Assembly: GCA_000004985.1 (NCBI GenBank)
Contig: GG738847.1
Length of the DNA stretch: 64,000 nucleotides
Strand: one strand, 5' to 3'
Source: Naegleria gruberi
Lineage: Eukaryota
The translations under genes and the position numbers were made by a program. The notes beneath the pieces are model-generated. The model saw nothing but the letters and a program-made list of their open reading frames with translations. It had not been told where the DNA came from and did not search any database. Below are positions 57,884 through 61,099 of the stretch, one piece after another; position 1 is the first letter of the stretch, and each line of letters opens with the position of its first letter.

Positions 57884-60800
57884 ATGTCAAAACATCTCAT
57901 CATCACAGTGTTATTATTATTCATTACTTATTACACAAAGTCATCAACAACAGTATACATTGATTCAATAAATGGAATTGACTCTAATTGTTCATCATTA
58001 GAAAATCCATGCAAAACAATCTCCTATTTTGTTGATTCAATTTCCTTTCCGACTGATCAAAGTTTGATTAACATTGTTCTATTGACAGATTGGTTGGATG
58101 AATATGAATGTTTAAATTTCAAGAATAGAAACATTACTCGGGTTCATTTCATGGGATTTAATGGTTCATTTGTTAAAATTAAATGTAATCCAATGGCTTA
58201 TTTTGTGACTCTAGTTAGATTTTCAAATGTGGAAATGGATTTTGTAACAACCAAATTTAACACTTTGGAAATTGTTGATAGTATTGTTAATAATGTTGGT
58301 ATTACAAGAAGTGCAAATAGAGTTCTTTTGGATAATGTACAAATGGGAAGATGGATAGTATTTAACCATGTCGACTCGTTGATGATTAACAATTCCAAAT
58401 TTGGGAGAGCATCATTGCATCTTACTGGTGGTTCTTACATTAGTAATTCAACATTTTCGAATAGCGTACTCAAAATTGACATGGATAGTGCACAACAACA
58501 TCTAACAGTCATTAATGGCTCAAGTTTTATGGAAAGTTCAGTTCAAGTAACAGGCAGTGGCCAATTTATTGTAGATCGTTGCAGTTTTACAAAGAATATT
58601 CCTTCACAATTGGAAAAACCTTATGCACTCTTTATTCAATCCATTTTCTTGTTGAAAATTTCAGTTTCATATTGTAATTTTACAAATTTCAATTTGGGAG
58701 TAGTGTATTTAACAGGAATTGGACTTAGTGGCGAAATTACAAATTCAATCTTTTCTAATAACTCGAATACAGGTGGGGGTGGGGCAATATCTTTAAATAG
58801 TATACAAATATTACAGGTTAGGGAGTCTGTTTTCATTAATAATAGACAAATTGGAGCAGGTAATGAGAATTTTGCAGATCAAGTTGGAGGAGGAGCTATT
58901 TATCAATATCAATCATTGCTCAGGACTGAGTATTGTAAATTTATTAAGAATGAGGCAATTACAGGTGGAGCTATTTTCTCATTCCACGCCTATCAGTACA
59001 GCTCGAGTTTTGATGTAAGTTTCACAACACTACTACTTGGCTCACAAAGAATAGCAATTTCTTAACAACTCGGCAGTTTATGGTGGAGCATACTCTTCCA
59101 TTTATTCATCATCATCGAGCACTGCCAATATTTACATTTATACCAGTTTATTTCAGTATAATAGAGCTCGAAAATATGGTGGTGCTATTTTCACACTGAG
59201 AGGTTCTCTTTTTTTCACCCAAATTCCAATAGTATCGTTTAATGGTGCTGATATTTTAGGAGGAGGAATTTATTTGATTGGAACCACTACATCATTGCAT
59301 TCTGAATCCTTTTACAATAATTATATAAATGGTGGTGGTGGTGGTGAATATTCAGATGTTGCTTCATTTCCTGAGCTGATTGAGGCAACTATTTCAGAGA
59401 AGAATTTTATTTCATACAATAACAAATCACAAATTGACATGATCTATATGAGATTTGGTGAAACTATATCTATTGATATACTATTATTTGATACTATTGA
59501 TGGAAAACCTAATATGGTTAATTCAAATACTGAATTTGAAATTAGTGTGGAAATTGAAAAAATTGCAGTATTTGATAAATTAGAAGCAAGTAATACCAGC
59601 GTGACTGGTGTCTTATATTCGAAAGTAGTACAAGAAAAAATCAGTAATTTCACTCTCACAATTACCATCAAATCAACACTTTTCACAACAGAAGCTTACA
59701 ATCGAAAAATTTCAATTCAAGCAATACCAACCCAATGTCAATCATGGTTCAGTTTACAGAGACAATCAAAGAAATTGTATGGAGATGATATTTATGCATG
59801 TACTTTCAATGTTGCATTAGTGTCCCCTTTTATAATTGCATCCATTGTTGTAATTTGTTGTCTATCATCAATTATTGTAATGGTTTCATGTTACAAACTC
59901 TATGGCATGCGTAGTAAAATCAAAATTCTTCACAAGAAGGAGAAAGCAGAGGAAGAATTGACTCAAAAGCTATTGGAATTACAAACCATGTACACAACAG
60001 AATTGGAAAGTAAATATTCATTGAAGAATTGGCTTATTAGAGTTGAGGATATCAAGATTGTGAAAAAAATTGGAGAAGGCGGAATGGGAGTTGTATATTT
60101 GGCATTGTAGGTTTTCATTTCTAGTATTTCAACATTAACATTTACCAATTTAGGTGGTCCAATGTAGAAGTTGCCTTAAAAACCATCAAATTGAGAGATG
60201 AGGATATTGATAGTGATGAGTTTGAACACGAATCTTCAATGTTATCATCAATAAGACATCCAAATATTGTAAATTTTTATGGAGTTTGCCTTTCTAAGGA
60301 ATCTAAATTCATAGTGACTGAATATGTGAGTGGAGGAAGTTTGGATAATTTAATTTATGATTGTAAATTGAAGAGAAACCACATTAATTTACGTGAAAAG
60401 ATTTCAATTCTACTTGGAATTGCTAATGGAATGAGCTATTTACATGGAAAAGACAAGTGTATCATTCATAGAGATTTGAAACCTGCTAATATCTTACTTT
60501 CTAATGATTTCATTCCGAAAATAACAGATTTTGGTCTAGCTCGATTATCTGAAAACTCAAATAGTACCAAAACAGGACATGTTGGAACCTTACTGTTCAT
60601 GAGTCCAGAAATTCTATTAGGACAATATTACAATGAAACATCAGATGTGTTCAGCTTTTCCATTATTATGTGGCAATTATTGTTTGATGAAAGTAATTTG
60701 TTCCACCATGATTATGCTACCAATCCTAAATATGTTTCAATCATGTCTAAACAAGAACAAGAAACTTTTGCTTCCTTCAAGTTTCAACCTTCACTTTTGC

Positions 60801-61099
60801 TTATTCCAAAATTAGTTTCAGAGGGTTTACGTTTGCCAATACCAACCTTACCAATCAATTCTCAATCCCAAATTATGAAATTGTGGATTAGAGAATATTT
60901 TCTATCTGAGGATTTGAAATACAGTACTTCTCAAGTAATCAAATCAGAAGATAGTGTAACTAATATCTACCTCAATGCATTGAATGAAATATTTTCAATT
61001 ATGAAATTGTGTTGGAGTGAGGACATTTATCAAAGGCCACCTTTTACAGAAATTGCTTTGAAATTAGTGGAAATTCAAAAAACAACTGTTTTTAAATGA
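57884..61099 (+). CDS. receptor protein kinase (TKL-like Ser/Thr kinase) with Pmp-like parallel beta-helix ectodomain; 3 exons
   Basis: Exons are 57884..59025, 59066..60106 and 60154..61099. Introns are 40 and 47 nt. There is a signal peptide. The ectodomain has repeated FxNN...GGGAI/GGAIF/YGGAY motifs, as in the GGA(I/L/V)/FxxN repeats of polymorphic-membrane-protein beta-helices. The TM helix is VSPFIIASIVVICCLSSIIVMVSCY. The kinase has IGEGGMGVVYLA|L|WSNVEVALK, HRDLKPANILL, DFGLAR and the (S/M)PE motif. Confidence 0.75.

What the first reader, a model, noticed from the sequence alone, without database searches (positions are those of the whole stretch)
57884..61099. Receptor TKL kinase with a Pmp-type (GGAI/FxxN) beta-helix ectodomain
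The extracellular region contains about eight repeats with FxNN and GGGAI/GGAIF/YGGAY signatures, characteristic of the passenger beta-helix of polymorphic membrane proteins. It is joined through one TM helix to a Ser/Thr-type (HRDLKPANILL) TKL kinase. This looks like a lineage-specific receptor architecture, and a possible sensor for surface or glycan cues.
Basis: partly seen in the sequence, partly recalled or inferred. Interest (0 to 1): 0.5.

Follow-up and report, generated by a model that had tools for sequence, protein, structure and literature searches.

The report
Amoeba receptor kinase with beta-helix ectodomain
This is an intact three-exon gene of a Naegleria-like amoeba that encodes a single-pass membrane receptor, with a bacterial-adhesin-type (Pmp-repeat) beta-helix outside the cell and an active-looking Ser/Thr (TKL) kinase inside; it belongs to a small family already in public Naegleria and Willaertia proteomes that nobody has studied.

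Summary

An ectodomain-only search returned the N. gruberi orthologue plus 34 proteins, all carrying Pfam Chlam_PMP. The protein itself scores below the Pfam cutoff (15.2 vs 20.6 bits), but 5 of 8 relatives pass. The best PDB kinase matches are CTR1, TAK1, MLK1/4 and TNNI3K, which are TKL kinases.

The kinase is not a separate gene. Its glycine loop lies in exon 2 with the TM helix, and two relatives encode the whole architecture in one uninterrupted ORF.

The family has at least 4 divergent members in N. lovaniensis, at least 2 in N. gruberi and at least 1 in Willaertia. Analogous Pmp-kinase fusions occur in protosteloid amoebae. I found no paper describing it. Ligand and function are inferred only. 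Interest is moderate to low: a new variant of protist receptor kinases.

The parts
57884..59014 (+). Exon 1 (aa 1-377): start codon, signal peptide, N-terminal cap and most of the beta-helix
   Evidence: ORF from the ATG at 57884. GTAAGT donor at 59015.
57884..57943 (+). Predicted signal peptide, MSKHLIITVLLLFITYYTKS
   Evidence: N-terminal hydrophobic stretch read from the sequence. No SignalP-type tool was available, so this is inferred.
57944..59351 (+). Right-handed parallel beta-helix ectodomain (aa 21-476, interrupted by intron 1). A conserved Cys36...Pro42-Cys43 cap lies at the N-terminus.
58664..59351 (+). Pmp-type rungs (aa 261-476): 5 canonical FxxN...GG[AG][IY] pairs plus 3 degenerate rungs. 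Rung 2 carries a 10-residue loop (aa ~327-332) with low pLDDT.
   Evidence: 0 of 20,000 shuffles reach 3 pairs. The Asn and Gly of the motifs are invariant in the family (N293, N320, G361, N382, G387, G388, N413, G419, N440, G446). Low-confidence loop at model residues 307-312.
59015..59054 (+). Intron 1 (40 nt, GTAAGT...AATAG)
   Evidence: It contains the frame shift, and exon 1 read through hits TAA at 59063. Removing it gives the same 14-residue GGAI-to-FxxN spacing as in P0127.
59055..59158 (+). One complete rung (aa 378-411, QFLNNSAVYGGAY...TSLFQ), ending at a good alternative acceptor (TTTATTTCAG at 59158). Using that acceptor would delete exactly this rung in frame.
   Evidence: Read from the sequence. 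The N. gruberi model P0001 lacks this rung at the same junction, whereas all 8 other family members keep it.
59055..60106 (+). Exon 2 (aa 378-728): last rungs, stalk, TM helix, juxtamembrane segment and the kinase glycine loop
59361..59807 (+). Membrane-proximal stalk (aa 480-628): Ig-like beta-sandwich with the family motif YPGQ-like ...FGE...D, and invariant Cys605 and Cys626
59808..59894 (+). Transmembrane helix (aa 629-657)
   Evidence: Hydropathy maximum 2.98 over 19 residues, with K/R-rich sequence following.
59895..60050 (+). Juxtamembrane segment (aa 658-709) with the conserved KEKAE..L..KL motif and NW(L/I)I.VEDI
   Evidence: About 85% identical to the N. gruberi orthologue by eye. 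E676, L683 and I705 are invariant in the family. A coiled-coil or dimerising role is inferred only.
60107..60153 (+). Intron 2 (47 nt, GTAGGT...TTTAG), which splits the kinase N-lobe between the glycine loop and the VAxK lysine
   Evidence: Splicing restores ...VVYLALWSNVEVALK, matching the invariant A727, W729, V734, A735 and K737. Relative L002 is continuous across this point. The N. gruberi model P0001 stops at GVVYLAL, so the intron position is conserved.
60051..61090 (+). Protein kinase domain (aa 710-1040): GEGGMG 717-722, K737, E754, HRDLKPAN 833-840, DFG 853-855, SPE 878-880, D892, CW 1014-1015, R1022
   Evidence: Pfam E 2.6e-52 and 9.4e-50. Best PDB matches are CTR1 (3.3e-40), TAK1, MLK1/4 and TNNI3K. 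Residue positions; all are invariant in the family.
60683..60808 (+). C-lobe insertion 1 (aa ~905-946), between helix F and the EGLRLPIP (helix G) motif
   Evidence: The Pfam and PDB alignments break at aa ~904 and resume at ~1005. The insertion is present in family members.
60845..60985 (+). C-lobe insertion 2 (aa ~959-1005), with the conserved K..W..E(Y/F) motif
60154..61099 (+). Exon 3 (aa 728/729-1042 plus TGA stop)

Best explanation
This is a type-I single-pass receptor-like Ser/Thr kinase of a Naegleria-clade heterolobosean amoeba.

Shown by the analysis:
- One gene of three exons encodes signal peptide, right-handed beta-helix with Pmp-type rungs, Ig-like stalk, TM helix, conserved juxtamembrane helix and a catalytically complete RD-type TKL kinase with two insertions flanking helix G.
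- It belongs to a multi-copy family in Naegleria and Willaertia. In that family the kinase is conserved (43-58% identity) and the ectodomain diverges fast (18-39%).
- The only invariant ectodomain residues are structural: the Asn ladder, Gly turns and Cys.

Inferred mechanism:
- The beta-helix is a rigid scaffold held away from the membrane by the Ig-like stalk. As proposed for chlamydial Pmps, it presents variable loops and faces that bind an extracellular ligand.
- The most plausible ligand is a polymeric or surface-bound one, such as a bacterial or cell-surface glycan or a protein on prey, substrate or other amoebae.
- Binding of a multivalent ligand brings receptors together or re-orients a dimer preformed through the juxtamembrane helix.
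- The kinases then trans-phosphorylate the Ser/Thr-rich activation loop (SENSNSTKTGHVGT) and signal to cytoplasmic targets. The helix-G insertions may act as a family-specific docking surface.
For: - Gene model and architecture.
- Fusion is real: the glycine loop is in exon 2 with the TM helix. P0002 (1486 aa) and P0127 (1039 aa) encode the same ecto-TM-kinase architecture as single uninterrupted ORFs.
- Pmp-type repeats; 5 of 8 relatives exceed the PF02415 cutoff. Rung definition from PMC10715098.
- Stalk.
- Kinase is complete and TKL-like.
- Family membership in N. lovaniensis, N. gruberi and W. magna.
- No invariant charged residue in the ectodomain, so a scaffold rather than an enzyme.
- Sequon density fits the proposed topology.
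Against: - There are no transcript data, so both introns and the choice of intron-1 acceptor are inferred.
- This protein alone is below Pfam's Chlam_PMP threshold.
- No ligand, localisation or phosphorylation evidence exists for any family member, and I found no paper on them.
- The receptor could sit on an internal membrane; the Dictyostelium TKL receptor-like kinase VSK3 is vesicle-associated (abstract of PMC2064856).
- Dimerisation through the juxtamembrane helix is conjecture.
Confidence: 0.8

Rival explanations
1. There are two genes: a membrane-anchored Pmp-like surface protein (exons 1-2) and a separate cytosolic kinase (exon 3). On this view the reader's fusion is an artefact of adjacency.
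For: The N. gruberi public model P0001 ends at GVVYLAL with no kinase, and a kinase fragment (P0145) is annotated separately on another contig.
Against: - The kinase glycine loop (GEGGMGVVY) is encoded in exon 2, in the same ORF as the TM helix, and the VAxK lysine is in exon 3. Neither part would be a complete kinase alone.
- Only 47 nt, with GT..AG ends, separate the two parts.
- P0002 and P0127 carry the whole architecture in single ORFs.
- Full-length models exist in N. lovaniensis, N. gruberi (P0226) and W. magna.
- P0001 stops exactly at the conserved intron, which points to a truncated model.
Confidence: 0.03
2. It is a pseudogene. The two interruptions would be real frame disruptions in a decaying paralogue, not introns.
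For: There is no RNA evidence. Intron 1 is very short (40 nt) with a purine-rich acceptor (CAAAGAATAG). The window's own protein is not in any public collection.
Against: - Both interruptions have GT..AG ends, and their removal restores the frame and the exact family spacing.
- Intron 2 is at the position where the N. gruberi model stops, so it is conserved.
- All catalytic and structural invariant residues are intact over 1042 codons.
- There are no other stops or frameshifts.
Confidence: 0.05
3. The ectodomain is an enzyme (a glycan depolymerase, lyase or epimerase-like beta-helix) tethered to a kinase, rather than a ligand-binding scaffold.
Against: - No Asp, Glu, Lys, Arg or His is invariant anywhere in the ectodomain across 9 family members; the invariant positions are Asn, Gly, Cys, Phe, Pro and Ala.
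- Sequence relatives are PF02415 repeat proteins, described as adhesins or surface proteins.
- Identity to the enzymes is 5-16%, which is fold-level similarity only.
- The adhesins PfbA, Vag8 and EtpA are also among the hits.
Confidence: 0.07
4. The mature mRNA uses the downstream acceptor at 59158 (a 144-nt intron), giving a 1008-aa protein one rung shorter. Both acceptors may be used, giving two ectodomain lengths.
For: TTTATTTCAG at 59149-59158 is a better pyrimidine-rich acceptor than CAAAGAATAG. The product stays in frame and in register (SSSFD|YNRARKYGGAI still reads FxxN...GGAI). The N. gruberi model P0001 has exactly this junction (SSVD|KNKATKYGGAI).
Against: - The 104-nt segment is an open, in-frame, canonical rung (FLNN...YGGAY).
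- 8 of 9 family members keep a rung here, including two single-ORF genes, with identical 14-residue spacing in P0127.
- P0001 is demonstrably mis-modelled elsewhere.
Confidence: 0.2

Closest known systems
Uncharacterised Naegleria/Willaertia proteins: N. lovaniensis C9374_006686, _005796, _013776 and _004657; N. gruberi NAEGRDRAFT_69813 and the mis-modelled P0001; W. magna ABK040_001002
   Same: They share the whole architecture: Cys...PC cap, beta-helix with Pmp rungs, YPGQ stalk with two invariant Cys, TM helix, KEKAE juxtamembrane helix, and a kinase with the EGLRLPIP motif and both C-lobe insertions.
   Different: They are paralogues or orthologues at 26-37% overall identity (43-58% in the kinase). 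The window's own sequence is not in the collections. None has a described function; all are annotated 'hypothetical' or 'protein kinase domain-containing'.
Chlamydial polymorphic membrane proteins (Pmps; Pfam PF02415 Chlam_PMP repeat)
   Same: Both have paired FxxN and GGA(I/L/V) motifs, one pair per beta-helix rung of about 27 residues or more, with a variable loop between the motifs. This matches PMC10715098 and is seen here.
   Different: Pmps are bacterial type V autotransporters with a C-terminal beta-barrel and a 'middle region', and carry 9-25 rungs. This protein is a eukaryotic type-I membrane protein with about 8 rungs, an Ig-like stalk, a TM helix and a kinase. No barrel or middle-domain hit was found.
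Trichomonas vaginalis Pmp-like surface proteins (cited in PMC10715098)
   Same: Eukaryotic proteins with FxxN/GGA rungs predicted to form a beta-helix.
   Different: To my knowledge (from memory, not tested here) they have short cytoplasmic tails and no kinase.
Dictyostelium receptor TKL kinases (GDT and DRK/VSK families)
   Same: Signal peptide, ectodomain, one TM helix and a TKL kinase in an amoeboid protist that lacks receptor tyrosine kinases (PMC1420674).
   Different: Their ectodomains are described as Dictyostelium-specific gdt/drk domains or TIG, not Pmp repeats. They belong to a different supergroup (Amoebozoa vs Discoba).
Pmp/beta-helix-TM-kinase proteins of protosteloid amoebae (Protostelium nocturnum P0009, Planoprotostelium fungivorum PROFUN_00467 P0021) and unassigned contigs (P0006, P0012, P0334)
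   Same: PF02415 and/or PF13229 ectodomain, TM helix and C-terminal kinase.
   Different: They have much longer repeat arrays (1500-1970 aa). Where the catalytic loop was read, it is HRDLSARN (P0009), HRDLAVRN (P0021) or HRDLK(S/T)HN (P0012, P0006), not HRDLKPAN, and the helix-G insertions are absent. They are probably independent fusions.
Plant RLK/Pelle receptor kinases and Raf-like/MLK/TAK1 TKL kinases
   Same: TKL-group kinase. CTR1, TAK1, MLK1/4 and TNNI3K are the best single-domain PDB matches, and plant LRR-RLKs are the best named full-length hits after the family itself.
   Different: The ectodomain differs. The kinase scores higher against CTR1 (141 bits) than against SymRK (115) or Pto (109). 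It carries about 90 extra residues around helix G.

Membership tests
Eukaryotic protein kinase superfamily, active RD kinase | Pfam Pkinase / PK_Tyr_Ser-Thr above the gathering score | tested here: met
   178.1 and 169.9 bits against cutoffs of 23.1 and 31.7.
Eukaryotic protein kinase superfamily, active RD kinase | Catalytic residues: GxGxxG, VAxK Lys, helix-C Glu, HRD, catalytic-loop Asn, DFG, APE-like motif, subdomain XI Arg | tested here: met
   GEGGMG 717-722, K737, E754, HRD 833-835, N840, DFG 853-855, SPE 878-880 and R1022; all are invariant in 9 family members.
TKL group (tyrosine-kinase-like Ser/Thr kinases) | Closest to TKL kinases by sequence | tested here: met
   Best single-domain PDB hits are CTR1 (141 bits), TAK1 (120.6), MLK1 (118), TNNI3K (116) and SymRK (115). 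Tyrosine kinases follow closely (Src-Abl ancestor 128, ITK 124), so the margin is modest. A Kinomer or kinase.com HMM classification could not be run.
TKL group (tyrosine-kinase-like Ser/Thr kinases) | Ser/Thr-type catalytic loop (HRDLKxxN) combined with the TK-like subdomain XI CW...RP.F | tested here: met
   HRDLKPAN 833-840, GTLLFMSPE, and CWSEDIYQRPPF 1014-1025.
Pmp-type repeat proteins (Pfam PF02415 Chlam_PMP) | Pfam PF02415 at or above the gathering score (20.6 bits) | tested here: not met
   This protein scores 15.2 bits, E 0.025. Of 8 family members, 5 pass (20.7-30.3 bits), one scores 19.2 and two have no hit.
Pmp-type repeat proteins (Pfam PF02415 Chlam_PMP) | Repeated, paired FxxN and GGA(I/L/V) motifs, one pair per rung of about 27 residues or more | tested here: met
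   5 strict pairs with periods 26-36, plus 3 degenerate rungs. None of 20,000 shuffles reaches 3 pairs. Definition from PMC10715098.
Pmp-type repeat proteins (Pfam PF02415 Chlam_PMP) | Significant sequence similarity to recognised PF02415 proteins | tested here: met
   All 34 non-orthologue hits of the ectodomain search carry PF02415 (E 1.8e-10 to 1e-3 against 5.8 billion sequences). The family profile hits PF02415 proteins at E down to 1e-149; repeat matches add up, so these E-values reflect many rungs.
Pmp-type repeat proteins (Pfam PF02415 Chlam_PMP) | Right-handed parallel beta-helix fold | tested here: met
Chlamydial Pmp autotransporters proper | C-terminal autotransporter beta-barrel and Pmp middle domain | tested here: not met
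   No such Pfam hit was found. The C-terminus is a TM helix plus a kinase. It shares the repeat with this family but is not a member.
Single-pass receptor-like kinase (topology class) | Signal peptide, one TM helix, N-out/C-in orientation, cytoplasmic kinase | tested here: inconclusive
   Hydropathy shows one TM segment and an N-terminal hydrophobic leader. Positive residues follow the TM helix, and sequons are enriched in the N-terminal part. No dedicated predictor or experiment was available.
Naegleria/Willaertia Pmp-helix receptor kinase family (unnamed) | Full-length collinear alignment including the stalk Cys pair, the KEKAE juxtamembrane helix and both helix-G insertions | tested here: met
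   79 invariant columns across 9 sequences.

The most novel reading that the evidence does not exclude
The family is a diversifying set of prey or surface-recognition receptors, built when a heterolobosean ancestor captured a prokaryote-type Pmp adhesin helix and joined it to a TKL kinase. In this gene, two competing acceptors (59054 and 59158) would add or drop exactly one beta-helix rung, tuning the ectodomain by alternative splicing. This would give free-living amoebae an innate, kinase-coupled pattern-recognition system analogous to plant RLKs.
Probability: 0.1. Interest if true: 0.7.

Novelty: new variant of a known kind. Interest (0 to 1): 0.35.

Why it matters
Receptor kinases are well understood in animals and plants but barely studied in free-living protists. 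Naegleria includes the brain-eating N. fowleri, and its close relative N. lovaniensis carries at least four members of this family.

A kinase-coupled surface receptor with an adhesin-type beta-helix is a plausible way for an amoeba to sense bacteria, substrates or host surfaces. Its kinase has family-specific insertions that could be exploited as a selective handle.

The work also gives two practical corrections: a corrected gene model, and evidence that the N. gruberi orthologue is mis-annotated. Nothing here overturns current understanding. It adds a documented ectodomain type to the list of receptor-kinase architectures.

Tried and rejected
- **Identifying the source organism.** Exact look-ups of three window ORFs found nothing on record, and the window has no Rfam hit. 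The best available inference is a Naegleria-clade heterolobosean distinct from N. gruberi and N. lovaniensis.
- **Fetching the N. gruberi locus.** P0001 is not on record in the contig index, so I could not inspect the orthologous intron 1.
- **Counting paralogues per species.** The family-profile search was swamped by giant PF02415 repeat proteins. Family size therefore comes only from the 50%-identity representatives.
- **Fold library.** The afdb50 library was unavailable, so I made no structural comparison with predicted Pmp models.
- **Solved relatives.** Profile searches of the PDB with the ectodomain gave nothing significant; the best hit was Rhombotarget A at E 0.045.
- **Synteny.** The two ENA relatives show no synteny with the window, and the window holds no paralogue.
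- **Base composition.** It does not discriminate the disputed rung segment from exon or intron sequence.
- **Literature.** Seven searches found no description of a Pmp-kinase receptor in Naegleria or any other protist.
- **Other splice combinations.** The remaining combinations were rejected because they destroy the FxxN motif or the kinase A..W..VALK spacing.
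Full report
**What is in the sequence**

The window is AT-rich (31-38% GC). It carries eukaryotic genes with very short introns.

At the reported coordinates an ATG at 57884 opens a 393-codon ORF. Two further ORFs follow on the same strand and end at the TGA at 61097-61099. I enumerated all GT..AG pairs that keep one frame open. One combination uses the consensus donor GTAAGT at 59015 and restores sensible protein sequence on both sides:
- exon 1: 57884-59014
- intron 1: 59015-59054 (40 nt)
- exon 2: 59055-60106
- intron 2: 60107-60153 (47 nt)
- exon 3: 60154-61099

The product is 1042 aa. Feature coordinates were re-translated as a check.

**Are the introns real?**

Intron 2 sits inside the kinase N-lobe. 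The glycine loop GEGGMGVVYLA is in exon 2, and W-SNVEVALK with the catalytic lysine is in exon 3. Splicing recreates the family-invariant pattern A727-x-W729...V734-A735-x-K737.

A relative from an ENA assembly (P0127, locus L002) is collinear with the window across this point without any intron. The public N. gruberi model of the orthologue (P0001) terminates at ...GVVYLAL. That is exactly where reading through the window's donor meets TAG. The intron position is therefore conserved, and the N. gruberi model is truncated there.

Intron 1 is less secure. Its acceptor (CAAAGAATAG) is weak, and a better one (TTTATTTCAG) lies 104 nt downstream at 59158. Using the downstream site would remove exactly one beta-helix rung (aa 378-411) and stay in frame and in register. 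The N. gruberi model has just that junction.

However, the 104 nt encode a canonical rung (QFLNNSAVYGGAY...). Eight of nine family members have a rung at this position, including two single-ORF genes. The short intron reproduces the 14-residue spacing between GGAI and the next FxxN seen in P0127.

I therefore prefer the 40-nt intron. I keep the longer intron, or alternative use of both, as a rival at 0.2. No transcript data were available.

**The repeats are not chance**

The ectodomain holds five strict F..N-(3-16)-GG[AG][IVLFYM] pairs at aa 290, 317, 353, 379 and 410, with periods of 27, 36, 26 and 31. Of 20,000 composition-preserving shuffles, none reached three pairs.

**Fold**

The spliced protein could not be submitted. 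I therefore predicted the two exon-encoded halves of the ectodomain separately, each with an alignment of nine family members.

*First half, aa 21-377.* The model has pLDDT 85.1 and pTM 0.86 and consists of short strands throughout. Its one low-confidence stretch coincides with the long loop between FxxN and GGA in rung 2. This is the behaviour described for the omega-loops of chlamydial Pmps (PMC10715098).

**Is it 'Pmp-type'?**

Pfam's Chlam_PMP model hits this protein only below threshold (15.2 vs 20.6 bits). That is a failed test and I report it as such. The wider evidence is nevertheless consistent:
- Five of eight family members pass the threshold.
- An ectodomain-only search of 5.8 billion proteins returned the N. 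gruberi orthologue plus 34 others, every one carrying PF02415.
- A profile of the family retrieves bacterial, archaeal and algal PF02415 proteins at E down to 1e-149. Among those that carry a source name are a 'pmp20 precursor' of Gimesia, Methanobrevibacter beta-helix proteins and Bryopsis proteins.

The motif pairing and rung length match the published definition.

It is not a chlamydial Pmp in the strict sense. There is no autotransporter barrel or middle domain.

**Kinase**

All catalytic motifs are present and are invariant in the family. The catalytic loop HRDLKPAN and the GT...SPE P+1 region are Ser/Thr-type. Subdomain XI (CW...RPPF) is TK/TKL-like.

The best single-domain PDB matches are the TKL kinases CTR1 (3.3e-40), TAK1, MLK1/4 and TNNI3K. 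Tyrosine kinases follow not far behind. TKL is supported, but no dedicated kinome classifier could be run.

Alignments to Pfam and the PDB break at aa ~904 and resume at ~1005. Between those points the conserved EGLRLPIP (the helix-G region) is flanked by two insertions of roughly 40-45 residues. Both are shared by family members.

**One gene or two?**

One gene. The glycine-loop argument above already points that way. In addition, P0002 (1486 aa, locus L001) and P0127 (1039 aa, locus L002) encode helix, TM segment and kinase in single uninterrupted ORFs. Full-length models also exist in N. lovaniensis, N. gruberi and Willaertia magna.

**Family and distribution**

I searched 1.84 billion representatives exhaustively with the exon-3 kinase. 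Nine of the hits align over essentially the whole query, insertions included:
- four N. lovaniensis proteins
- two N. gruberi proteins, one a fragment
- one W. magna protein
- two from environmental assemblies (ENA and JGI/IMG)

P0002, from the earlier word-based search, makes a tenth relative.

Identity to the window protein is 43-58% in the kinase but 18-39% in the ectodomain. The only invariant ectodomain residues are Asn, Gly, Cys, Phe, Pro and Ala. The core is conserved and the surface is free to vary. This argues for a binding scaffold rather than a conserved enzyme, although most structural neighbours are enzymes.

The window itself holds no paralogue. Its own proteins are not in the collections. 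The organism is therefore a Naegleria-clade heterolobosean not represented there.

Pmp/beta-helix-TM-kinase fusions with other kinase types occur in Protostelium nocturnum and Planoprotostelium fungivorum. The idea is thus not unique to this lineage, though this particular family appears to be.

**Mechanism (inferred)**

The beta-helix, held off the membrane by the Ig-like stalk, presents variable loops and faces to an extracellular ligand, probably a polymeric or surface-bound one. Clustering, or re-orientation of a dimer through the conserved juxtamembrane helix, then allows trans-phosphorylation of the Ser/Thr-rich activation loop of this RD kinase. The helix-G insertions may provide family-specific docking.

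Only the anatomy is shown. Ligand, localisation, oligomeric state and activity are not.

**Comparison and novelty**

Single-pass TKL receptor kinases are known in Dictyostelium, with different ectodomains (PMC1420674), and in plants. Pmp-type helices are known in bacteria, archaea and Trichomonas.

I found no paper that joins the two or mentions this family. Its members sit in databases as 'hypothetical' or 'protein kinase domain-containing' proteins.

I rate it a new variant of a known kind.

Noticed in passing
window 59149-59158 (alternative acceptor) and 59055-59158: A strong pyrimidine-rich acceptor lies exactly one beta-helix rung downstream of the preferred acceptor. Using it would delete aa 378-411 in frame and in repeat register. 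This is a candidate for alternative splicing that changes ectodomain length.
   Followed up: partly
N. gruberi protein P0001 vs window 57989-60107: The public N. gruberi orthologue model looks chimeric and truncated. Its first ~295 aa have no counterpart in the window, it lacks one rung, and it stops at the conserved intron inside the kinase glycine loop. A 208-aa kinase fragment (P0145, NAEGRDRAFT_76915, 58% identical to window 60470-61078) on a 2.8-kb contig may be the missing half or a close paralogue.
   Followed up: partly
protein P0211 (Moumouvirus australiensis YP_010790095): A giant-virus 'putative serine/threonine protein kinase receptor' is among the 150 closest kinase representatives (E 5.4e-56, 37% identity). 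It contains an EGxR(L/P)x(I/V)P-like motif. A possible link between amoebal and giant-virus receptor kinases was not explored.
   Followed up: no
window 61153-63270 (-): The convergent downstream gene is a 705-aa single-ORF protein with a marginal RGS domain hit (24.4 vs 23.9 bits) and low-complexity Ser/Asn tracts. Only 53 nt separate its stop from the kinase gene's stop.
   Followed up: no
window 56371-57687 (+): The upstream ORF matches the C-terminal half of an amino-acid permease (AA_permease_2, E 7e-38, profile positions 183-425). The gene therefore probably starts further upstream, across an intron.
   Followed up: no
window 43450-46506 (-), 48356-49972 (-), 51264-53030 (-), 40837-41862 (+): Other genes in the window: a 1018-aa beta-lactamase-domain protein, an NHL-repeat protein, asparagine synthase and an amine oxidase fragment. 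No tRNA or other Rfam family was found anywhere in the 64 kb.
   Followed up: no
loci L001 and L002 (ENA sample ERZ27315067): Two intronless family members (P0002, P0127; contigs at ~39% GC) come from the same environmental assembly. This implies an unsampled heterolobosean there with at least two paralogues. Neither shows synteny with the window.
   Followed up: partly
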